The translations under genes were made by a program, and so were the position numbers. The notes under the pieces are model-generated. The model had not been told where the DNA came from. It made no database searches and saw only the letters and a program-made list of their open reading frames with translations. DNA of 64,000 nt from NCBI GenBank assembly GCA_041742135.1, contig JBGSJG010000004.1:45975-109974 (forward strand). Reading direction: 5' to 3'. Shown in pieces: positions 2,963 through 42,042 of the stretch. Numbering within the stretch: position 1 is the stretch's first letter; the number at the start of each line of letters is the position of its first letter. This DNA comes from Patescibacteria group bacterium. GTDB lineage: Bacteria > Patescibacteriota > Microgenomatia > UBA8517.

Positions 2963-3805
2963 CTATTCGTCGTGCGAGAATTTGTTTAGCAATTCTTTGA
3001 GCATGTTTTCACTGTAATTCTCTCTTGTTATCTGAAATAACATTTTAAATGTTCCACCTCCAAATTGCTCGTCTGTTTGTGTCTCTAGGTTTTTCCAGTC
3101 ACCAGTTAATCTAGCTTCAATAATCAAGTCCATCCATGAAGGAATTTTGCACTCTATTAGTGAATGTAAACGGACAAAGTTGTCTGCAACCAAAGACATG
3201 CGAGTGCCTAAATCTGTAAAAATATATGAGACATAAGTTTTCGGTGACGGCAAAGACTTTTCTTCCAGTTCTTTTCTCAGGGCTGCCATTTTTTGTGTTT
3301 TTAAAATATAGTCATCTTTGAATAGTAATTTCGCTCGGTGTGTGACGTAGAATTCTTCTTCTTTACTTACAAACCCTTCTTCAAAGAAGTAGCCCTGATA
3401 GCTTCGGATTTCGTTGTTTTTGTTTTTCACCGGAATCGGAACAATCGACTTTAGGCAATAAAGATGATCTAGTTCATGGAAAAGCAATGAAACAATGTCT
3501 AGGTTTGACATTCCCGGTTCTACAAAGATGACCACTACTGCATTTAAAGTAAGAGCTAACGAATTTGAAAAATCACTGTCTTGCCTTCCGCCAGCGTTGA
3601 CATATGCAGCGCTAACGGTGGCATTGTGTTTGCTGGGTATTAAATAGATGCGAGGCTCTGATGATTTAAAATTGTATTTCTCAGCCCGCTTGGAAAAATA
3701 ATTAATTAAATAAGATCGCTCGCTTACTAAACTTGCCCCAACCTTTTTCTGTAGTTTTTTTAAAATAGATTCCATTAAATTTTTCCTATAATTTGTTTTT
3801 ACCAC
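2963..3805 (-). CDS. hypothetical protein with HExxH motif (putative zinc metallohydrolase)
   Basis: LLFHELDHLYC motif in mid-protein. Start overlaps the end of ung by 7 nt, suggesting translational coupling. Confidence 0.35.
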   Translation of the reverse strand: MVKTNYRKNLMESILKKLQKKVGASLVSERSYLINYFSKRAEKYNFKSSEPRIYLIPSKHNATVSAAYVNAGGRQDSDFSNSLALTLNAVVVIFVEPGMSNLDIVSLLFHELDHLYCLKSIVPIPVKNKNNEIRSYQGYFFEEGFVSKEEEFYVTHRAKLLFKDDYILKTQKMAALRKELEEKSLPSPKTYVSYIFTDLGTRMSLVADNFVRLHSLIECKIPSWMDLIIEARLTGDWKNLETQTDEQFGGGTFKMLFQITRENYSENMLKELLNKFSHDE

Positions 3806-7035: not shown

Positions 7036-8051
7036 TGAAAGTTCAAACTTTTGAGGAGATCGATCTTACTGGCAAGAGAGTTTTAGTGAGAGCTGACTTG
7101 GATGTTCCGTTTGAAGGCACAGAGGTCCGCGATGATTCTAGAATCGTAAACTGCACTCCCACCTTTAAGCGAATTTTGGAAAAAGGAGCAGCCCAGCTTT
7201 TAATTTTGGGGCATATTGGCAAATACGAAGGAGAGGAAAAAACCGTGTCGACTGAGTTTTTAGTTCCAACTTTGGAAAAATTACTTGGGGAGAGTGTGAA
7301 GTTTGTATCCGGAATGCCTCCAACGGGAGAGCTGGCGGGCAGAATAATCTTATTAGATAACGTCCGAAAAGACCCCAGAGAAGAACAAAATAGCGATGAG
7401 TTTTCGAAGGGAATTGCACGACTTGCCGACACTTATGTTAACGAAGCTTTTGCTACTTCTCACAGAGAGCACTCTTCAATTGTTGGCATTTCAAAATTTC
7501 TACCTAAGTACGCTGGGATTCGTTTCGCGCGTGAAGTGGAAACACTCTCGGAGATTTTGGAAAATCCAAAAAAGCCAGTTGTGGCGCTAATTAGTGGAAT
7601 TAAGAGAGATAAATTAACTTATATAAATAATTTTTTGGGCTTTTCCGATCGCATTTTAGTTGCAGGGAGGCTTCCTGAGTACATTGAGGACAACGATCCT
7701 CTGAGAAGTAACTCGAAGGTGGTTGTTGCTCGATTGATTCCAGACAAGGAGGATATAACAATTCATGCGATCGAGGCATTCGAACAGGAAATTGACCGTG
7801 CGGAAACTGTGATTGTCGCTGGAGTTTTGGGCAAATATGAAGAAGAGGGTCACAGGCAGGGGACGAAGCGCGTGTTTGAAAAAGTGGCAAATTCTAGCGC
7901 ATATAAACTTATGGGCGGAGGAGACTCTGAAGCCGCCGCATCGCTTTTTGGCATAACTGACAAATTTGACTGGATTAGTACGGGTGGAGGCGCCATGCTT
8001 GAGTTTTTGGCAAAAGGAACTTTACCTGGGATTGAAGCATTGATACACTGA
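7035..8051 (+). CDS. pgk: phosphoglycerate kinase (short, 338 aa)
   Basis: GKRVLVRADLDVP N-terminus. GGGDSEAAA...GGGAMLEFL C-terminal motifs. ATGA overlap with rpiB. Confidence 0.85.
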   Translation: MKVQTFEEIDLTGKRVLVRADLDVPFEGTEVRDDSRIVNCTPTFKRILEKGAAQLLILGHIGKYEGEEKTVSTEFLVPTLEKLLGESVKFVSGMPPTGELAGRIILLDNVRKDPREEQNSDEFSKGIARLADTYVNEAFATSHREHSSIVGISKFLPKYAGIRFAREVETLSEILENPKKPVVALISGIKRDKLTYINNFLGFSDRILVAGRLPEYIEDNDPLRSNSKVVVARLIPDKEDITIHAIEAFEQEIDRAETVIVAGVLGKYEEEGHRQGTKRVFEKVANSSAYKLMGGGDSEAAASLFGITDKFDWISTGGGAMLEFLAKGTLPGIEALIH

Positions 8052-32456: not shown

Positions 32457-33002
32457 TTGATGCCTATCTATACCAAAAAAGGGGACAAGGGGGAGACGGG
32501 GTTAATTGCCCAAAACCCAGAAGAGAAAATTCGAGTATCAAAAGACTCGGCTCGTGTTGAAGCCATCGGAGCAATTGATGAGCTTAATTCTTATCTTGGA
32601 GTTTGTCTTTCGTTTAGCAATATTCCCGAGCGCGCACCATTTTTGAAAGCGATTCAAGTGAATCTTTTTACTATAAACTCGATACTGGCTGGGAGTGACC
32701 TGAAATTTAATAAAAGCCACACCACACGATTGGAAAAGGAAATCGATAAAATCGACCTCAAAGTTACAAAACTTACGACTTTTGTAATGCCTGCTGGGAC
32801 TGTGTTCGCAACTCATTTGATGTATGCTCGCACACTAGCACGAAAAGCCGAGAGGCGCGCTGCAGGGCTTGCCAAAATCGAAAAAGTTCACCCAAATATT
32901 TTGATGTATCTAAACAGACTTAGTGACATGATTTTTACGCTTTTCCGAGAAGCCAATCACGAAGCGGGAATCCCTGAGACTTATTGGAAGGGCAAGCCCT
33001 AA
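32457..33002 (+). CDS. ATP:cob(I)alamin adenosyltransferase, PduO/MMAB type
   Basis: MMPIYTKKGDKGETGL...SKDSARVEAIGAIDELNSYLG, the classic PduO-type N-terminus. Confidence 0.85.
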   Translation: MMPIYTKKGDKGETGLIAQNPEEKIRVSKDSARVEAIGAIDELNSYLGVCLSFSNIPERAPFLKAIQVNLFTINSILAGSDLKFNKSHTTRLEKEIDKIDLKVTKLTTFVMPAGTVFATHLMYARTLARKAERRAAGLAKIEKVHPNILMYLNRLSDMIFTLFREANHEAGIPETYWKGKP

Positions 33003-33844
33003 CAACCTTCGTAAACGCCGTCGCATTTCGGACAGTGATCTCCCGCCGACATATATCCATTAATTGAGGCGCCGCAGTTGCCACAATTTTTGACATACTT
33101 TTTCTCACCACTTGCAGGCGAGTAAATTAAGAGTCTTGCTCCACTAGTACTTAAGTTTGCAAAAGTCTTCATGCCAACGGGGCAGCTTATGGGGTTTTCC
33201 CCCAGAAACCCTGATGTTTGCATCTCCTGAACTACAAGTTCGGGGGCGATACCCGCTCGAATTTTTTCTGCGAAATATTCTGCATTACTACGATTTGTTG
33301 GTTGAAGCACCTCTGGTTTTTTGTGTGACACAGACTCGATCCAGGTAAGTACCGCAAAGTATGTTTCATCTTCGTCTGGTGCGCTAATTAAGACACCTCT
33401 TTGTTCCTCGGGCTTAGGAATTTCTCCGTCGTATAGGATTGCAGAGTAGAGGAGAACCTTTTGCATTTTTTCGTTATAAACAATTTGATAAATCATTGTT
33501 TTGTTGCAGGGATAAACCCCTTCGAGTTTTGGGCTATGCCAGATAAAGACTCCTTCTTCTGTCTCTGCAACGCGTTTTTGAAGTTCCTGGGCAATTTGAT
33601 ATTCAACGCCGGGTGCAATGTGGGAAAGTATCGGGTCGCCCGTGTCCTCATCTATTAAAACTCCATCTTGGATTAGGTAAGGACGCGAATCTGGTGTGCG
33701 GTTGGTTTCGTTCGAGATACTTAGAAGTCTTGTTGTTAAGTCTTCTTTTTTAATGGATGGGTCTACCCAGTCGGAGGTCACCCAATTTAAAACCGTAACT
33801 TCGGGTGATTCTGCAAACGATGGTCTGATATCTACTGCCAACAT
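32999..33844 (-). CDS. hypothetical protein with C-terminal double zinc-ribbon (CGNCG...CPKCDG)
   Basis: Cysteine pairs at the C-terminus. No catalytic motif recognised. Confidence 0.4.
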   Translation of the reverse strand: MLAVDIRPSFAESPEVTVLNWVTSDWVDPSIKKEDLTTRLLSISNETNRTPDSRPYLIQDGVLIDEDTGDPILSHIAPGVEYQIAQELQKRVAETEEGVFIWHSPKLEGVYPCNKTMIYQIVYNEKMQKVLLYSAILYDGEIPKPEEQRGVLISAPDEDETYFAVLTWIESVSHKKPEVLQPTNRSNAEYFAEKIRAGIAPELVVQEMQTSGFLGENPISCPVGMKTFANLSTSGARLLIYSPASGEKKYVKNCGNCGASINGYMSAGDHCPKCDGVYEGC

Positions 33845-34057
33845 ATTTCTTGCTCGAGAACCCCTCGGTTTACTCGGGGTAAACAGTTGCTAGTTTTCCG
33901 GCTCTTCGACTCATTACACTCGCTCAAAGCTATAGCTTTCGTACTATAGTGGTGAGCGTAGTCGAACCACGGTTGCGGCACAGCTTGGGATTTTCACCCA
34001 ATTCCTTGAACACAACTTGTAACTATCAATATACAATTAATCGCAAAGAATACAAGA

Positions 34058-34101
34058 TCCTTCGACTGCCTGCCCGCGCAGGCTGGCGCTCAGGATGAAT
34101 C
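34058..34101 (+). repeat. 44-nt GC-rich palindrome-containing repeat, copy A
   Basis: tccttcgactgcctgcccgcgcaggctggcgctcaggatgaatc. 39/44 identical to copy B at 38667. Confidence 0.8.
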
Positions 34102-34151
34102 TGTCAGTTTGCTTTTGAGGTTATAAGCCTAAAAGTATACAATAGTACAGT

Positions 34152-36850: not shown

Positions 36851-36887
36851 GGGCCATTCGTTCATCGGCTAGGACGGGATTCTTATA
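36851..36887 (+). pseudogene. 5' half of a split tRNA gene (tRNA#2), ending in anticodon loop CTTATA
   Basis: GGGCCAT acceptor strand and D-arm. Pairs with the 3' half at 36994-37033. Confidence 0.6.
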
Positions 36888-36998
36888 GCGCAAAAATGGG
36901 CCTGTCGTTCAATGGTAGGACACCATTCTTATAAAGTGGACACGAAGGTTCGATTCCTTCCAGGCCCACATTTTTGCGATATATCGTGATGCGTTATA
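36883..36998 (+). mobile_element. 106-nt insertion in the anticodon loop of tRNA#2, carrying an intact tRNA gene
   Basis: Flanked by 10-nt inverted repeats CGCAAAAATG (36889-36898) and CATTTTTGCG (36969-36978), and by a duplicated TTATA (36883-87 and 36994-98). Confidence 0.4.
36898..36968 (+). tRNA. tRNA, anticodon UAU (Ile-type, AUA-reading) by manual cloverleaf; no encoded CCA
   Basis: Acceptor GGGCCTG/CAGGCCC. D-stem GTTC/GGAC. Anticodon stem CCATT/AGTGG, loop CTTATAA. T-arm GAAGG-TTCGATT-CCTTC. 71 nt. Confidence 0.6.
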
Positions 36999-37033
36999 AA
37001 GTCCAAAGGATGGTTCGACTCCATCATGGCCCA
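36994..37033 (+). pseudogene. 3' half of split tRNA#2
   Basis: TTATAA-AGTCC...GATGG-TTCGACT-CCATC-ATGGCCC-A. Anticodon stem and acceptor are perfectly complementary to the 5' half at 36851-36887. Confidence 0.6.
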
Positions 37034-37103
37034 CAAGTAGGACGGATTTTTGTGACAACGAAGATTCGAAAATTTTGCGAAGCAAAAGAGTCAAGCTTTG
37101 CTT

Positions 37104-37121
37104 ATTCCTTCCAGGCCCACA
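37104..37121 (+). repeat. 18-nt direct repeat identical to the 3' end of the tRNA (ATTCCTTCCAGGCCCACA)
   Basis: Exact match to 36953-36970. Att-core-like, about 210 nt from the end of the integrase gene. Confidence 0.6.
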
Positions 37122-37124
37122 CTA

Positions 37125-37340
37125 ATGACAAAAGACGAAAAGAAAAAATACGACACTCTGGTAGAGGAACACAAGAAAGTTGCCGAGAAGTTAGAGTTTC
37201 TTCACAGAGGATTTCGGGGAGTGAGCCACGAAAATTCTGCTGCTGAGATGCGCTACACTACAATTCAGGTGTACGAAGCCCATCTTAAAAGTATCGAGGA
37301 AGCCATGAAACTACTGATTGCTGATGAGAAAAGCTTATAA
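37125..37340 (+). CDS. small charged hypothetical protein
   Basis: 71-aa ORF (MTKDEKKKYD...) between the tRNA-end repeat and the integrase. Confidence 0.3.
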   Translation: MTKDEKKKYDTLVEEHKKVAEKLEFLHRGFRGVSHENSAAEMRYTTIQVYEAHLKSIEEAMKLLIADEKSL

Positions 37341-38204
37341 CTCTTCTAGCCTTGGCGAGTGGCCACTTTCTTTTACGTTGGCAATTTGAAGATAGCGCTC
37401 TGTGGTTGATAGTCTTCTATGTCCTGCCGCTTGAGAAATAGTTACAAGGTCAACACCTCTTTTAATGTTTTCAATCAAAAAAGTGTTGCGAAGGTCGTTG
37501 ACCGAAAACTCAGAAAGCTCTGCTCTTTGAAGATATCTGTCAATTAAGGCTCGAATATTTCTTATTGCTAGTGGGTTGCCCGTTTTACTGACGAATAAAT
37601 AAGGAGAAGTAGCATCGCTTCGCTCGCGAAGATAATCCTCAATTGCGGCTCTGGCGGTTTTATTTAGAGGAATTCTGCGCTCTGGTTGAGTAGCATATGC
37701 GTCGATAACCACTTCATCCCTTTTAACATCAGACACTTTTAAGTTTGCAACTTCCGATATTCGCATGCCAGTCTGAAGAATTAGTTCAATCATTGCAGCG
37801 ACTTTACGGTCATATTTTGCTGTATCACGAAGCGATCGGTACTCAATGGGGGACAAATATCCGGGCTCTGGGGCGTTAATTTCTGGGTGGCTTACTTCGC
37901 GCGACGGATCTTCCTCGATGTAGCCTTCATCTTTTACCCAACGGAAAAAAGTTTTCACCGCGTTAAGTTTTCGCGATGTCGATTTTGGGGTATATTTATG
38001 AGACAAAAGATGATCACGAAAACCCTCCAAGTCTCGCAAGGTTATGTTTCTCGGGTCGACAACGCTCTTGTGGCTCAAGTATTCAGTTAGCTGTTCCAAA
38101 TCGGAGCCATAAGCTAGAATGGTGGAAGGGGAGCGCTTTTTGTCTGTAAGTTCTTGAATAAATCTTGGCACAAGGTCGCCTAAAGTGACGCTAAATTGGT
38201 TCAT
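37335..38204 (-). CDS. tyrosine site-specific recombinase (phage-integrase/XerCD family)
   Basis: N-terminal SAM-like core-binding domain (TILAYGSDLEQLTEYL). C-terminal R...HRRLSTTERYLQ catalytic signature. Confidence 0.8.
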   Translation of the reverse strand: MNQFSVTLGDLVPRFIQELTDKKRSPSTILAYGSDLEQLTEYLSHKSVVDPRNITLRDLEGFRDHLLSHKYTPKSTSRKLNAVKTFFRWVKDEGYIEEDPSREVSHPEINAPEPGYLSPIEYRSLRDTAKYDRKVAAMIELILQTGMRISEVANLKVSDVKRDEVVIDAYATQPERRIPLNKTARAAIEDYLRERSDATSPYLFVSKTGNPLAIRNIRALIDRYLQRAELSEFSVNDLRNTFLIENIKRGVDLVTISQAAGHRRLSTTERYLQIANVKESGHSPRLEEL

Positions 38205-38666: not shown

Positions 38667-38710
38667 TCCTTCGACTGCCTGCCTGTGCAGGCGGGCGCTC
38701 AGGACGACTC
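38667..38710 (+). repeat. 44-nt GC-rich palindrome-containing repeat, copy B, followed by further GC-rich hairpins to about 38750
   Basis: Starts 1 nt after the FtsB-like stop. GGCCGGG-AGTCGCG-CCCGGCC hairpin downstream. Confidence 0.8.
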
Positions 38711-38844
38711 CGTCGTCGGTTGCGGGGCCGGGAGTCGCGCCCGGCCTAGGAGATTATGAGCCTCCTGTGCAACTCTACACTACCCCGCATATCACCCTCA
38801 ATTGTTTTCAAGGGTGTCCTATTATACCTCGAAGTGTAAAGATG

Positions 38845-38904
38845 GCAAAACAAGTTTGAGTTTGGAAGCTCAAAAAGGTAAAATTGACTCACGTCAGGGT
38901 AGCT
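38845..38904 (+). repeat. 60-nt perfect direct repeat, copy A (tRNA-Met promoter plus first 12 nt of the tRNA)
   Basis: Identical to 40574-40633. Followed here by a non-foldable tRNA-like tail, not a tRNA. Confidence 0.9.
38879..38884 (+). promoter_or_regulatory. -10 box TAAAAT inside repeat copy A (duplicated tRNA promoter now facing the lipoprotein gene)
   Basis: Same element at 40608-40613 sits about 9 nt upstream of the tRNA-Met 5' end. Confidence 0.35.
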
Positions 38905-38970
38905 AACTCCGAAGAGATAGGGGCTCATAATCACTAGGTTGGAGTTCGATCCTTTCCCTTGATACAAAAC

Positions 38971-40464
38971 ATGACCGACACCGAAGAGCCAACAGTAGCT
39001 AATAACACGATAAGTAGGCGAACTTTTCTTAAAATGGCGGTTGCTACTGGCGCAGGATTGTTGGCTTCTTGTGTTCCAGGTTCCACTGAACCCAGCACTT
39101 CAACTCCGACTCCAGAACCTTCTCGGACACCAACTATTGCACCTCCAACTCACGAGCCGACGCCAACAGAAACTCCTGACCCGATTGAGCGTTATAACGA
39201 GTTAAAAGAAATGGACGTCACTGAATTGGATTTGGACGAAGCTCTGAATATCGTAAATGAATCGTATAGAGCAATTACGGCCAGAGATAGAACGCAGATT
39301 GCGTTTGACGAGGACTCTTTTGCTTTTGACAGAAGTGTGCCGGCAATAGACGAGAGAAGAAGAGAACGAGTTCGTGGCCAAAAGCAGACTTTGCAGTATC
39401 TTAAAAATGCAATGTTTGCTTTGGATGAAATTAGAAAAGAGGCCGATGCTGAGCAATATATTTATTCCACGCGCCATCAGAGAATCGTACTGGTGAATGA
39501 TCAAGGAATGGAAACCGGTGCAGGGAGGACATCTTTCAGCGTTAATCAGCCATACGAAGACGTTCAGATTCGTTTTAACGAGAGAATGGATCAAGAGGTT
39601 GCGGCAAACGAGCTGGTTCCGGCCATGCTTTGGCCAGGGCAGATTCCTCAGGGGGAGCCACCCTCTTATAATGCTGATGAATGGGACCTGTTATCCAGTT
39701 TTCTTCATGTCGCGATTGCGGAGAAACTGGGTATTGATAACCAGTTTGAAAGAGTTGCTCAAAATCAGTTCGGAGTTGTTTTTCCAGAAGGACAAGATTT
39801 AAGAAGCACTGGTGAATTTTACGGCTTGCAAACGGTTGGACTCTCGCAAGAAAACAGAAACGCCCTGTCCTATTTTAACGAAGCGTACCATTTAGTTATA
39901 TTTAATCGGATGCGGGCAGCGGGAATTGAAGCCACAGATATATTAAAAGCACTCGATGAAATTTGGATGGCCGATCGGAGCTATTGGATAGATAGTGGGC
40001 AATTTGAGCAAACAAGACAAGACCTTTCGCAAGCGAGTATTTATGAAAGAGATTTTGAAGGAAGTAGTGATAAGCCGTTCTCAACTGTATTCGCGATCCA
40101 AGTTTGGGGGGAAAATGGTATTCGACTCATATCGACTCGGCGCAATAACGTTGAAGTTACTTTAGGTGTTGATCCGAGTAACCCTCGTGAAGCTGGGCTT
40201 TATTGGCCTCAAAACGACTATTTTAGAGTTGAGAGGGGAGATGGTGAAATTCTTTATGAGGGTGGTGGCTATCAAGAATTGCCTCAAAGTACAGATAATG
40301 AGTTGAACTTTGTTCGACTACAAGAAATACCTAACGTGTCTCCGGGAGAAAAATTGAAAATCATTCATCGAGAGGCACGATTCAATCCAGAAAATGGTGC
40401 TTTTGAGGATGTTTCTGAGGGAGACAAAGAGTATGAAGTATTGGCACCTCGGTGGATTAATTAA
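38971..40464 (+). CDS. Tat-signal lipoprotein, hypothetical
   Basis: SRRTFLKMAVATGAGLLASC (twin-arginine plus lipobox). T/P-rich linker. ATG at 38971 preferred over the TTG at 38959. Confidence 0.5.
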   Translation: MTDTEEPTVANNTISRRTFLKMAVATGAGLLASCVPGSTEPSTSTPTPEPSRTPTIAPPTHEPTPTETPDPIERYNELKEMDVTELDLDEALNIVNESYRAITARDRTQIAFDEDSFAFDRSVPAIDERRRERVRGQKQTLQYLKNAMFALDEIRKEADAEQYIYSTRHQRIVLVNDQGMETGAGRTSFSVNQPYEDVQIRFNERMDQEVAANELVPAMLWPGQIPQGEPPSYNADEWDLLSSFLHVAIAEKLGIDNQFERVAQNQFGVVFPEGQDLRSTGEFYGLQTVGLSQENRNALSYFNEAYHLVIFNRMRAAGIEATDILKALDEIWMADRSYWIDSGQFEQTRQDLSQASIYERDFEGSSDKPFSTVFAIQVWGENGIRLISTRRNNVEVTLGVDPSNPREAGLYWPQNDYFRVERGDGEILYEGGGYQELPQSTDNELNFVRLQEIPNVSPGEKLKIIHREARFNPENGAFEDVSEGDKEYEVLAPRWIN

Positions 40465-40573
40465 TTTCACGAACTGAAAGGGTCGCAAAATTATTTTTGT
40501 CCTATCGAGAAGAGTTTGTTTCGGAGTATGGAATGCTTGTCGAATGCGCCATACGCCTCTTAGTTCAAATTAC

Positions 40574-40633
40574 GCAAAACAAGTTTGAGTTTGGAAGCTC
40601 AAAAAGGTAAAATTGACTCACGTCAGGGTAGCT
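40574..40633 (+). repeat. 60-nt perfect direct repeat, copy B (native promoter and 5' end of tRNA-Met)
   Basis: See copy A. Confidence 0.9.
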
Positions 40634-40695
40634 CAGCTGGTTAGAGCACAGCATTCATAACGCTGCGGTCGTGGGTTCGAATCCCACCCCTGACA
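40623..40695 (+). tRNA. tRNA-Met (anticodon CAU; could alternatively be a lysidine-type Ile2)
   Basis: GTCAGGG/CCCTGAC acceptor. GCTC-AGCTGGTTA-GAGC D-arm. Loop TTCATAA. GTGGG-TTCGAAT-CCCAC T-arm. Confidence 0.8.
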
Positions 40696-40723
40696 CTTTA
40701 TTTTTTCCGTTTACGGTATAAAA

Positions 40724-41061: not shown

Positions 41062-42042
41062 ATGGATAAAGTGATTTTTTCTGGCATTAAGCCTTCAGGA
41101 AAACCTCATTTGGGCAATTATATTGGTGCTATTAAACACTGGGCCACAGACCAAGGTGTGGGTAAGCAATATTTTTGTATTGTCGATCTGCACGCGATAA
41201 CCGTTGAGCAAGACCCAGTGGAGCTCAAAGAAAACGCCTTGGAATTGGCGGGGCTACTTTTAGCCTGTGGAATTGATCCTGAAAAGTCTACACTGTTTAT
41301 TCAGTCCCATAACCCCGATCACGCTAATTTGGGCTGGATATTAAACTGCTACACCTCAATGGGGCAGATGAGCCGCATGACTCAATACAAGGAGAAAAGT
41401 GAAGGCCGTGAATTTGTAAGTGTTGGATTGTTTGATTATCCAGCTTTGATGGCCGCCGACATTCTCTTGTATGACACAACAGAAGTGCCAATTGGAGATG
41501 ATCAAAAGCAGCACGTTGAGCTTACTCGCGATATTGCCCAGCGTTTTAATGCTCGTCACGGTGAAACATTTTTTTTGCCAGAACCGATAATTCCTAAAAT
41601 GGGTGCTAGGATAATGAGCTTGTCAGATCCAACAAAAAAGATGAGTAAAAGCATTACTGATCCATCAGGAACTATTAATTTAACTGATTCAGCTGATGAA
41701 ATAAGAAAAAAGATAATGTCAGCTGTTACTGATAATGAAAATCTTGTAGCTTTTGATGAAGCAAGACCTGGGATTTCCAATTTAATGCAAATTTTTAGTC
41801 AGACCACTGGTAAAAATATGCAAGAAATCGAGAGTGAATTTGGAACTAGTGGTTATGGCGATTTCAAAAAAGCAGTGGCAGAGTCAGTAATTCTTGCTTT
41901 GGATCCAATTCAAAAGAGATATGAAGAACTAAGAAGTAACGGTGCTCTTGAGGAAATTCTAAGAAAGGCAGCTGAGGGAGCATATGCCGTATCTCATAAA
42001 AAACTTACCGAGGTTTATCGTAAAATTGGCTTTATCGAATAA
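41062..42042 (+). CDS. trpS: tryptophanyl-tRNA synthetase
   Basis: HIGH-type PSGKPHLGNYIGA and KMSKS motifs. Confidence 0.9.
   Translation: MDKVIFSGIKPSGKPHLGNYIGAIKHWATDQGVGKQYFCIVDLHAITVEQDPVELKENALELAGLLLACGIDPEKSTLFIQSHNPDHANLGWILNCYTSMGQMSRMTQYKEKSEGREFVSVGLFDYPALMAADILLYDTTEVPIGDDQKQHVELTRDIAQRFNARHGETFFLPEPIIPKMGARIMSLSDPTKKMSKSITDPSGTINLTDSADEIRKKIMSAVTDNENLVAFDEARPGISNLMQIFSQTTGKNMQEIESEFGTSGYGDFKKAVAESVILALDPIQKRYEELRSNGALEEILRKAAEGAYAVSHKKLTEVYRKIGFIE

What the first reader, a model, noticed from the sequence alone, without database searches (positions are those of the whole stretch)
38845..40633. 60-nt perfect direct repeat duplicating the tRNA-Met promoter and 5' end, bracketing a Tat-lipoprotein gene
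The sequence GCAAAACAAGTTTGAGTTTGGAAGCTCAAAAAGGTAAAATTGACTCACGTCAGGGTAGCT occurs twice, 1729 bp apart. Copy B runs into an intact tRNA-Met. Copy A runs into a 55-nt stretch that has a tRNA-like T-loop (GAGTTCGATCC) but cannot form a cloverleaf. A 498-aa Tat-lipoprotein gene follows copy A. The repeat contains a plausible -10 box (TAAAAT) and the transcription start, so the lipoprotein gene appears to have captured a tRNA promoter. A perfect 60-mer in an otherwise unique region implies a recent insertion or duplication event. It may have been catalysed by the nearby recombinase using the tRNA 5' region as the crossover site.
Basis: seen in the sequence. Interest (0 to 1): 0.55.

Follow-up and report, generated by a model that had tools for sequence, protein, structure and literature searches.

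The report
tRNA promoter copy drives lipoprotein gene
In an uncultured small-genome bacterium (CPR, Microgenomates), a 1.7-kb piece carrying one orphan lipoprotein gene lies between two identical copies of a methionine-tRNA promoter plus the tRNA's first 12 bases, so both the new gene and the tRNA are headed by that promoter sequence; this is a familiar kind of tRNA-linked insertion, but at the unusual 5' end.

Summary
A perfect 60-mer occurs at 38845-38904 and 40574-40633. Each copy holds 48 nt of promoter (-35 TTGAGT, 17 nt, -10 TAAAAT) plus the first 12 nt of the elongator tRNA-Met.

Copy B heads the intact tRNA. Copy A heads a full-length but decayed tRNA-Met pseudogene, not just a T-loop. 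That pseudogene ends 6 nt before the ATG of a 497-aa Tat-lipoprotein ORF with no detectable homologue.

About 50 related Microgenomates loci with enough flank keep the same neighbourhood: tRNA-Ile(UAU), Xer-like recombinase, DivIC, initiator tRNA, elongator tRNA-Met, usually then TrpRS. None shows the lipoprotein or this duplication. Copy A sits where the elongator tRNA normally sits, so the resident gene was split after position 12 by a 1729-nt unit.

The -10 box lies 8-9 nt before tRNA position 1 in most relatives that have a promoter there (about 30 loci). ORFs that start a few nt after a tRNA are common in the clade. Promoter capture is therefore well supported.

Recency and the enzyme are not established. 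The recombinase is a conserved resident gene, not cargo.

Side finding: complete tRNA genes nested inside the anticodon loop of displaced tRNA genes, in the window (tRNA-Ile) and in relatives.

The parts
38718..38789 (-). Initiator tRNA-fMet (UGCGGGG... U1:A72, unusual CGCGACU T loop). It is transcribed divergently from repeat copy A. Its promoter (-35 TTGCCA 38848-38843, -10 TATAAT ending at 38821) overlaps the first 4 nt of copy A.
   Evidence: ARAGORN. Rfam tRNA 45 bits. Orthologues with compensatory changes occur in about 40 related loci. Promoter scan 11 of 12.
38845..38904 (+). Repeat copy A: 48 nt of promoter (-35 TTGAGT 38856-38861, -10 TAAAAT 38879-38884, internal inverted repeat TTTGAG-N8-CTCAAA) plus tRNA-Met positions 1-12 (38893-38904). 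It lies 103 nt from the initiator tRNA, which is the usual position of the elongator tRNA-Met gene in relatives.
   Evidence: Conserved -10 spacing in relatives. Divergent tRNA pair in relatives.
38893..38964 (+). Decayed elongator tRNA-Met pseudogene. The first 12 nt belong to copy A. It has a 7-bp acceptor stem, a CUCAUAA loop, a destroyed D arm, and discriminator A at 38964. It is the likely 5' leader of the lipoprotein mRNA.
   Evidence: Rfam tRNA 22.9 bits, full length. Elongator HMM 27.3 bits against initiator 6.3. Fold z -0.57. Not called by ARAGORN.
38971..40464 (+). ORFan Tat-signal lipoprotein gene (497 aa; SRRTFLK, lipobox LLAS|C, Pro/Thr-rich linker). The ATG lies 6 nt after the pseudo-tRNA discriminator. 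There is no Shine-Dalgarno sequence, as for the neighbouring genes.
   Evidence: Only a self hit among 5.8 billion clusters and 1.84 billion representatives; the other hits cover only the signal and linker. GC 0.443 and GC3 0.362 match the neighbours.
40465..40573 (+). 109-nt spacer between the lipoprotein stop codon and copy B. No terminator-like site was found, so read-through into the tRNA is possible.
   Evidence: no terminator hit. (no homology with the flank upstream of copy A).
40574..40633 (+). Repeat copy B: the same promoter plus tRNA positions 1-12.
40622..40696 (+). Intact elongator tRNA-Met(CAU). It is the vertical orthologue of the tRNA upstream of TrpRS in the closest relative: a 35-nt stretch of the D and anticodon arms is identical to L082.
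   Evidence: L082 sequence compared.
37335..38204 (-). Xer-like tyrosine recombinase (context only, not part of the insertion). It is conserved at this position between tRNA-Ile(UAU) and DivIC/tRNA-Met in relatives.
   Evidence: Pfam Phage_integrase 102.6 bits. NCBIfam XerD 153.7, XerA 151.5 and XerC 146.2 bits, all below the equivalog cut-offs. Synteny.

Best explanation
The resident elongator tRNA-Met gene normally sits about 50-210 nt from the divergently transcribed initiator tRNA. Here it has been split after its 12th base by a 1729-nt unit.

The unit consists of the remainder (positions 13-73) of a different, decayed tRNA-Met, then 6 nt, then an orphan Tat-lipoprotein ORF, then a 109-nt spacer, then a second copy of the promoter plus tRNA positions 1-12.

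The result is two identical promoter modules.
- Copy A drives a transcript that begins 1-2 nt before the pseudo-tRNA and runs into the lipoprotein ORF.
- Copy B, possibly with read-through from copy A, drives the intact and presumably essential tRNA-Met.

The pseudo-tRNA leader mimics the tRNA-then-ORF layout common in this clade. There, 3' processing of the tRNA would leave a nearly leaderless mRNA.

The left junction lies in the conserved tRNA 5' segment (GTCA(A/G)GGTAGCT). This suggests that a 'tRNA-Met then lipoprotein' unit from the same or a closely related lineage recombined with the resident gene, using tRNA homology as an anchor. The 60 nt would then have been duplicated by single-crossover (Campbell-type) or template-switch insertion.

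Shown: the parts, their identity, the conserved promoter, the ancestral position and the absence in relatives. Inferred: transcription from copy A, processing, the direction of the event and the recombination mechanism.
For: - The repeat is exact, with sharp edges on both sides.
- Copy A occupies the canonical slot of the elongator tRNA next to the initiator tRNA. L084 is a mirror image with an 89-nt spacer, and many metagenome loci have a divergent pair about 50-210 nt apart.
- Copy B's tRNA is the orthologue of the tRNA upstream of TrpRS in the 80%-identical relative L082. The pseudo-tRNA is far more diverged but belongs to the elongator family.
- The lipoprotein and the duplication are absent from L084, L086 and about 47 further loci.
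- The -10 box is conserved 8-9 nt before the tRNA in most relatives that have a promoter there (about 30 loci), and both copies score as promoters.
- About 20 of 150 tRNAs in related loci are followed within 12 nt or less by an ORF of at least 60 aa. An example is tRNA-Ile followed by the small ORF in L086 and, via a tRNA remnant, in the window.
- No terminator lies between the ORF and copy B.
- The gene has native-like composition.
- Similar single-ORF insertions flanked by 30-35-nt direct repeats of target sequence occur in the same module elsewhere: L141 (30 nt, perfect, includes a degenerate tRNA-Ile promoter copy), L161 (33 nt, perfect, includes the initiator tRNA 3' end, GIY-YIG ORF) and L134.
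Against: - No conspecific genome with an empty site was found, so insertion is inferred only from relatives at 80% TrpRS identity or less.
- A pristine 60-mer beside a heavily decayed pseudo-tRNA is awkward for a simple recent insertion of a functional tRNA-led unit. Either the donor tRNA was already dead, or the repeats are kept identical by gene conversion.
- The pseudo-tRNA folds poorly, so RNase P/Z processing is doubtful.
- There are no expression data.
- No donor was found. The ORF has no homologue anywhere searched, and the 28-31-nt sub-strings tested (two from the repeat, one from the pseudo-tRNA) are absent from the viral and JGI metagenome contigs.
Confidence: 0.5

Rival explanations
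1. Old paralogues plus gene conversion. Two elongator tRNA-Met genes, A and B, each with its own promoter, have long flanked the lipoprotein gene. A became redundant and decayed. A recent conversion tract copied B's promoter and first 12 nt onto A (or the reverse), possibly selected because it restored lipoprotein expression.
For: - The pseudo-tRNA is tRNA-like over its whole length and is much older-looking than the 60-mer.
- The right edge of identity falls in the most conserved tRNA segment, where a conversion tract could end.
- The gene has native-like composition.
Against: - There is no residual homology upstream of the 60-mer to anchor the left end of a tract.
- No relative shows two elongator tRNA-Met genes flanking an ORF in this way, or the lipoprotein.
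- Other perfect direct repeats flanking single ORFs in the module (L141, L161) involve no paralogue and look like insertions.
Confidence: 0.2
2. A circular 1.7-kb cassette (60-mer, pseudo-tRNA, lipoprotein, spacer) was integrated by site-specific recombination. The neighbouring Xer-like tyrosine recombinase, acting in trans, catalysed it at a site inside the 60-mer. The imperfect 11-8-11 inverted repeat ACAAGTTTGAG-TTTGGAAG-CTCAAAAAGGT is a candidate site. This would work like elements that exploit Xer.
For: - The insert is bounded by direct repeats and contains no recombinase.
- A tyrosine recombinase lies 640 nt away.
- There is an inverted repeat inside the 60-mer.
- tRNA genes on both sides of this recombinase are rearranged in many relatives.
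Against: - The recombinase is conserved in place in relatives without the insertion, so it is not cargo.
- The inverted repeat is not conserved upstream of tRNA-Met in relatives.
- It is not shared with the repeats of L141, L161 or L134.
- 48 of the 60 nt are fast-evolving promoter DNA, an odd choice for an att site.
- There is no GC-skew switch here, as a dif locus at a replication terminus would show.
Confidence: 0.12
3. Assembly artefact or mixed population. The chromosome has only promoter then tRNA-Met, and the 1.7-kb segment is a separate molecule or strain variant sharing the 60-mer, threaded into the contig by the assembler.
For: - Independent Logan assemblies of two runs both stop inside the 60-mer. 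L349 ends 22 nt into copy A, and L081 starts 10 nt before the end of copy B. No contig seen here crosses a copy.
Against: - Breaks at a repeat longer than k, and inside tRNAs, are expected in k=31 graphs and do not speak against the tandem order.
- A 1.7-kb replicon with no replication gene is implausible.
- The source contig is 453,693 nt long.
- Both junction types are needed for any path through the graph.
Confidence: 0.05

Closest known systems
Integrative elements and small genomic islands inserted in tRNA genes (attL/attR repeats containing part of the tRNA; Reiter 1989 and Williams 2002, cited from memory; tRNA fragments reviewed in PMC9897764)
   Same: - Direct repeats that include part of a tRNA gene bracket the foreign DNA.
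- The tRNA stays intact after insertion.
- A partial or degenerate tRNA copy is left at the other end.
- Relatives lack the insert.
   Different: - The duplicated part is the promoter plus the 5' end, not the 3' end.
- The insert is a single 1.5-kb ORF with no integrase.
- 48 of the 60 repeat bases are non-coding promoter.
- The neighbouring recombinase is outside the repeats and conserved in relatives.
tRNA-mRNA co-transcription units (for example the E. coli thrU-tyrU-glyT-thrT-tufB operon, from memory; tRNA then ORF junctions in related loci)
   Same: An ORF lies directly downstream of a tRNA(-like) sequence and depends on the tRNA promoter. tRNA end-processing would define the mRNA 5' end.
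   Different: The tRNA here is a pseudogene that folds poorly, so it may act only as a leader. The promoter is a duplicated copy rather than shared.
Insertion-duplication by single crossover of a circular DNA (Campbell-type integration), and homology-facilitated illegitimate recombination in naturally transformable bacteria (from memory)
   Same: A short stretch of homology (tRNA 5' segment or promoter) is duplicated on both sides of the acquired DNA. No dedicated element-encoded enzyme is needed.
   Different: Not demonstrated in CPR bacteria. The donor and the circular intermediate are hypothetical.
Elements that exploit host Xer recombinases (IMEX such as CTX phage; pdif modules of Acinetobacter plasmids; from memory)
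   Same: The cargo has no recombinase of its own, and a Xer-family recombinase is encoded nearby.
   Different: No dif-like site is conserved or duplicated. The locus is not at a skew switch. pdif modules are bounded by inverted, not direct, sites.

Membership tests
tRNA-targeting integrative element / genomic island | Direct repeats at both ends that contain part of the target tRNA gene | tested here: met
   A 60-nt perfect repeat includes tRNA-Met positions 1-12.
tRNA-targeting integrative element / genomic island | The repeated segment is the 3' part of the tRNA, so the element restores the 3' end | tested here: not met
   The repeat is the promoter plus the 5' end. No 3' fragment of tRNA-Met occurs elsewhere in the window.
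tRNA-targeting integrative element / genomic island | An integrase gene inside the element, next to one att site | tested here: not met
   The only long ORF between the repeats is the lipoprotein; the two others are short and lie within it, on the opposite strand or in another frame. The recombinase at 37335-38204 is outside and is conserved in relatives without the insert.
tRNA-targeting integrative element / genomic island | Presence/absence polymorphism with a clean empty site | tested here: inconclusive
   It is absent from all relatives found, but the closest with usable flank are only 65-68% identical (integrase, TrpRS). No conspecific genome was found.
Functional tRNA gene (for copy A's downstream sequence) | Cloverleaf with conserved D and T loop elements, scoring above the tRNA model threshold | tested here: not met
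   Rfam 22.9 bits against the threshold of 29. Not called by ARAGORN. No G18G19. The minimum-energy fold is not a cloverleaf and z is -0.57.
Sigma-70-type promoter (for the 60-mer) | -35 and -10 hexamers with 16-18 nt spacing at a suitable distance from the transcript start, conserved in relatives | tested here: met
   TTGAGT, 17 nt, TAAAAT in both copies. A -10 box lies 8-9 nt before tRNA position 1 in most relatives that have a promoter there, about 30 loci. The actual start site is not testable here.
Tat-exported lipoprotein | Twin-arginine motif (S/T-R-R-x-F-L-K) followed by a hydrophobic region and a lipobox cysteine | tested here: met
   SRRTFLK and LLAS|C are read directly. The HMM support is borderline: Pfam 20.6 bits against 22.7, and TIGR01409 16.7 bits, equal to its cut-off. 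Whether the organism has a Tat translocase was not tested.
Xer recombinase (XerC/D/A/S) for ORF 37335-38204 | Score above the equivalog cut-off, and a cognate dif site | tested here: inconclusive
   XerD 153.7 bits (cut-off 329.6) and XerA 151.5 bits (cut-off 220). The catalytic R..HxxR..Y residues are conserved. No dif site was identified and the window has no skew switch.
Xer-exploiting element (IMEX) | Insertion at, and duplication of, a dif-like 28-31-bp site recognised by the host Xer | tested here: inconclusive
   An imperfect 11-8-11 inverted repeat lies inside the 60-mer. It is not conserved in relatives, and there is no independent evidence that it is a Xer site.

The most novel reading that the evidence does not exclude
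The 60-nt duplication may be one product of a recombination system that works on the tRNA genes flanking a conserved Xer-like recombinase in Microgenomates. The same module shows three other kinds of event.
- Complete tRNA genes, bounded by 8-13-bp inverted repeats, inserted after about position 36/37 of the anticodon loop of the resident tRNA with the same anticodon. These are 'tRNA-in-tRNA' cassettes, sometimes doubly nested.
- Flips of tRNA orientation between lineages.
- Single-ORF insertions bounded by 30-60-nt duplications of target sequence.

If one enzyme, the resident recombinase or an unknown one, moves gene-less mini-cassettes into tRNA genes in trans, this would be a new class of tRNA-targeting mobile cassette. 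The lipoprotein unit would be its largest cargo seen here.
Probability: 0.1. Interest if true: 0.75.

Novelty: new variant of a known kind. Interest (0 to 1): 0.42.

Why it matters
It shows how a small-genome CPR bacterium can add a lineage-specific surface protein gene without losing an essential single-copy tRNA. The promoter and tRNA 5' end are duplicated, so the newcomer inherits a strong housekeeping promoter and a tRNA-like leader.

Known tRNA-linked insertions duplicate the 3' end (stated from memory, not checked against the literature). A 5'-end and promoter duplication with a single-gene cargo and no integrase extends that picture.

It also points to a conserved module (tRNA-Ile, recombinase, DivIC, tRNA-fMet, tRNA-Met) as a hot spot of gene gain in Microgenomates. 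The nested tRNA genes found alongside may be of greater interest than the original finding.

Tried and rejected
- **Homologues of the lipoprotein.** The word-indexed search, the exhaustive phmmer search of 1.84 billion representatives and the viral contigs gave only a self hit. The other hits cover only the signal and Pro/Thr linker.
- **Structure prediction.** The single-sequence AlphaFold model had pLDDT 40.7, too poor for a fold search, so none was run.
- **Exact look-up of the lipoprotein in public assemblies.** Nothing is on record.
- **DNA scans.** Sub-strings of the 60-mer and the pseudo-tRNA body gave no hits in viral contigs. A 28-nt sub-string of the 60-mer gave none in JGI metagenomes.
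- **Pseudo-tRNA as a displaced initiator-type 3' half.** Rejected, because it fits the elongator HMM much better.
- **The 60-mer as a longer, older duplication.** Rejected, because there is no flank homology.
- **A paralogue of the insert elsewhere in the window.** None found.
- **Cassette motifs near phage tRNAs.** The motifs GCGATATATCG and TTATAGCGCAAAA gave only chance-level hits in viral contigs.
- **Locus at a replication terminus, with dif next to xer.** Rejected, because GC skew is monotonic across the window.
- **Williams 2002.** The paper could not be read, so statements about 3'-end preference come from memory.
Full report
**Observation.** The 60-mer occurs exactly twice on the + strand, at 38845-38904 and 40574-40633, with no match in 100 shuffles (searches find the same pair). 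Alignment of the flanks shows no significant similarity upstream of the repeat, and none downstream beyond the tRNA body. The unit therefore has sharp edges. Copy B overlaps the first 12 nt of tRNA-Met(CAU) at 40622-40696 (ARAGORN; Rfam 68.3 bits).

**What follows copy A.**
- The 72 nt at 38893-38964 align end to end with the Rfam tRNA model, but at only 22.9 bits against a threshold of 29.
- I built HMMs from the tRNAs of related loci. Against these, the sequence fits elongator tRNA-Met (27.3 bits; 19.7 bits without the 12 shared bases) and not the initiator (about 6 bits).
- Read by hand, it keeps a 7-bp acceptor stem (GUCAGGG/CCUUGAU, two G-U pairs), a CUCAUAA anticodon loop and a UUCGAUC T loop.
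- The D arm is destroyed (no G18G19) and the T stem is weak.
- RNAfold gives no cloverleaf and a z-score of -0.57, against -3.03 for the real tRNA.
- It is a tRNA-Met pseudogene. Its discriminator base (38964) lies 6 nt before the ATG at 38971.

**The ORF.**
- ORF 38971-40464 encodes 497 aa with SRRTFLK, a lipobox (LLAS|C) and a Pro/Thr linker.
- It has no homologue in the word-indexed search, in an exhaustive search of 1.84 billion representatives (the other hits cover only the signal and linker) or in viral contigs.
- Its GC and GC3 values match neighbouring genes.
- A single-sequence structure model was unusable (pLDDT 40.7).

**Organism and neighbourhood.**
- TrpRS (41062-42042) is closest to Microgenomates proteins (Woesebacteria, Amesbacteria). 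The nearest are 80% identical and lie on very short contigs; the rest are 68% or less.
- Relatives L084 and L086 show the same gene order: T4SS-coupling-like protein, tRNA-Ile(UAU), small ORF(s), tyrosine recombinase, DivIC, two tRNA(CAU) genes, small variable ORFs, TrpRS, tRNA-binding protein, FtsH. The lipoprotein is absent.
- A scan of JGI metagenomes with an alignment of the three recombinases returned 80 loci at 43-72% identity.
- Of the 51 loci with at least 1.5 kb of downstream flank, 42 have tRNA-Ile(UAU) within 3.5 kb downstream. Of the 51 with at least 1.5 kb of upstream flank, 47 have tRNA-Met(CAU) within 3.5 kb upstream.
- The recombinase is Xer-like. XerD, XerA and XerC score about 150 bits, all below the equivalog cut-offs. 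The window has no GC-skew switch.
- It is therefore a conserved resident gene, not the integrase of an element that carries the lipoprotein.

**The two CAU tRNAs.**
- The minus-strand tRNA at 38718-38789 (45 bits) is the clade's initiator tRNA. Its UGCGGGG...CCCCGCAA sequence is conserved, with compensatory changes, in about 40 loci.
- In most relatives the initiator and the elongator tRNA-Met form a close pair, often divergent and about 50-210 nt apart.
- Copy A starts its tRNA portion 103 nt from the initiator, which is the canonical elongator slot. The initiator's -35 box overlaps the first 4 nt of copy A.
- Copy B's tRNA shares an identical 35-nt stretch of the D and anticodon arms with the tRNA upstream of TrpRS in the closest relative, L082. 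It is the vertical gene.
- The simplest reading is that the resident gene was split after position 12 by 1729 nt, comprising pseudo-tRNA positions 13-73, the ORF, a 109-nt spacer and a second 60-mer.

**Promoter.**
- Both copies carry TTGAGT, 17 nt, TAAAAT.
- In most relatives that have a promoter there (about 30 loci), the elongator tRNA-Met is preceded by TGnTAAAAT or TATAAT ending 8-9 nt before position 1. The window has the same spacing (-10 ends at 38884, tRNA starts at 38893).
- Transcription should therefore start 1-2 nt before the (pseudo-)tRNA.
- In related loci, about 20 of 150 tRNAs are followed within 12 nt or less by an ORF of at least 60 aa. Examples are tRNA-Met followed by TrpRS, and tRNA-Ile followed by the small ORF in L086.
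- Neighbouring genes also lack Shine-Dalgarno sequences (read).
- 'tRNA promoter, tRNA(-like), a few nt, ORF' is thus a normal expression layout in this clade.
- No terminator-like site lies between the ORF and copy B.
- Promoter capture is well supported by sequence and comparison, but there are no expression data.

**Origin.**
- The left junction falls in the most conserved tRNA segment. The pseudo-tRNA's 3' acceptor strand implies an original 5' strand of GUCAAGG, one base different from the resident GUCAGGG.
- This fits recombination between a 'tRNA-Met then lipoprotein' unit and the resident gene, anchored in tRNA homology, with duplication of 60 nt (single-crossover or template-switch insertion).
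- A pristine 60-mer next to a long-dead tRNA means one of two things. Either the incoming tRNA was already a pseudogene, or the two 60-mers are kept identical by gene conversion. 'Recent' is therefore not proven.
- The rival is two old paralogues plus a conversion tract. It lacks upstream homology to end the tract and has no parallel in relatives.
- The recombinase model has no positive evidence. The inverted repeat in the 60-mer is not conserved.
- An assembly explanation is unlikely but untested. Two independent Logan contigs stop inside the 60-mer, as expected for a repeat longer than k.

**Parallels in the same module.**
- L141 has a perfect 30-nt direct repeat (the recombinase 3' end, followed by a degenerate copy of the tRNA-Ile promoter) around a 194-aa ORF.
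- L161 and L162 have a perfect 33-nt repeat, including the last 9 nt of the initiator tRNA, around a GIY-YIG ORF.
- L134 has a 35-nt repeat at 86% identity around a 182-aa ORF.
- Small insertions bounded by target duplications therefore recur here. This favours insertion over paralogue conversion.

**Side finding.**
- The window's tRNA-Ile(UAU) (36898-36969) lies inside the anticodon loop of another, still perfectly foldable, tRNA-Ile. That outer tRNA has its 5' half at 36852-36888 and its 3' half at about 36994-37035.
- The same 'X5, leader, complete tRNA Y, trailer, hairpin, X3' structure occurs for tRNA-Ile in L094, L106, L112, L113 and L155, and probably in L107 and L123.
- It occurs for the elongator tRNA-Met in L134 (doubly nested), L138 and L159.
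- The inner tRNA is flanked by 8-13-bp inverted repeats in 7 of 11 cases. No non-nested tRNA among 127 has 7 bp or more.
- Outer halves look more decayed the further out they lie.
- Literature searches found group I introns in Patescibacteria tRNAs (PMC13011429; also seen here in relatives' initiator tRNA) and tRNA fragments left by element integration (PMC9897764). They found nothing on nested tRNA genes.

**Verdict.**
- The finding is real, and the promoter-capture reading is sound.
- It is a 5'-polarity variant of the well-known tRNA-linked insertion, specific to this lineage.
- The age and the enzyme are unknown.
- The nearby recombinase is a conserved resident gene whose involvement is unsupported but not excluded.

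Noticed in passing
window 36851-37121: tRNA-in-tRNA. The complete tRNA-Ile(UAU) (36898-36969) sits inside the anticodon loop of a second tRNA-Ile. It is flanked by leader GCGCAAAAAT and the complementary trailer CATTTTTGCG, followed by ATATATCGTGATGCG. The outer tRNA's 5' half (36852-36888) and 3' half (about 36994-37035) would rejoin into a perfect cloverleaf. The whole 184 nt folds at about -66 to -70 kcal/mol, z -4.26. A third, broken tRNA-Ile remnant (37036-37121, with a 34-nt insertion in its T loop) ends 3 nt before the small ORF's ATG at 37125.
   Followed up: partly
L094, L106, L112, L113, L155 (tRNA-Ile); L134, L138, L159 (tRNA-Met); coordinates: The same nested structure recurs in relatives: outer 5' half, leader, complete inner tRNA with the same anticodon, trailer complementary to the leader, short hairpin, outer 3' half. 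L134 is doubly nested. The junction lies after about position 36/37 of the anticodon loop. Inverted repeats of 8-13 bp flank 7 of 11 inner tRNAs, and none of 127 ordinary tRNAs has 7 bp or more. Two motif groups appear: GCG-YTATA-GCG with the CGATATATCG palindrome, and CTG-TCATG-RCA with the TGACATGTCA palindrome. I found no description of this in the literature searched.
   Followed up: partly
L101 5317-5505, L161 2411-2632 and about 13 further loci: The initiator tRNA-fMet of many relatives is interrupted in the anticodon loop (after position 33) by a group I intron (Rfam RF00028, 89 and 76 bits). The window's initiator has no intron. This kind of intron is already described for Patescibacteria (PMC13011429).
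   Followed up: yes
window 38718-38789 (-): The initiator tRNA has U1:A72, a T loop reading CGCGACU instead of UUCGAxU, and a D loop without GG. Relatives with a normal UUCGA/UUCAA T loop have CGG in the D loop. Those with CG in the T loop (window, L084, L089, L095, L133) have AGAG instead. The two elbow-forming loops therefore co-vary.
   Followed up: partly
L141 6824-6853 / 7441-7470; L161 2674-2706 / 3220-3252; L134 6857-6891 / 7423-7458: Other single-ORF insertions in the same module are bounded by 30-35-nt direct repeats of target sequence. The targets are the recombinase 3' end plus a tRNA-Ile promoter copy (L141), the initiator tRNA 3' end (L161) and the spacer between the recombinase and tRNA-Ile (L134). 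The L161 cargo is a GIY-YIG nuclease fragment.
   Followed up: partly
elongator tRNA-Met upstream regions of about 30 related loci: The -10 box lies at a fixed 8-9 nt before tRNA position 1. These tRNAs would therefore be transcribed with almost no 5' leader. Many ORFs start 1-12 nt after a tRNA 3' end.
   Followed up: partly
loci L088-L167: The orientation of tRNA-Ile varies between lineages (7 '+' against 35 '-' relative to the recombinase). So does the orientation of the two tRNA-Met genes (tandem, divergent or convergent), while the surrounding protein genes stay in order.
   Followed up: no
window 33871-34053 (-): A cobalamin-riboswitch-like sequence scores 29.1 bits, just under the Rfam threshold of 31.5. 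It lies upstream of ORF 32999-33844 (-), which has no Pfam hit.
   Followed up: no
window 34058-34105 and 38667-38714: A GC-rich 48-nt repeat (88% identical) contains the hairpin GCCTGC-N4-GCAGGC. The second copy lies between the DivIC stop codon and the 3' end of the initiator tRNA. The first lies upstream of the 114-aa ORF and the T4SS-coupling-like gene. It may be a terminator or a small repeated element.
   Followed up: no
L349 (run SRR28170473) and L081 (run SRR28170474): Independent Logan contigs of two sequencing runs match the window exactly but stop inside the 60-mer, 22 nt into copy A and 10 nt before the end of copy B. This is consistent with the 60-mer being a branch point in the read graph.
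   Followed up: partly
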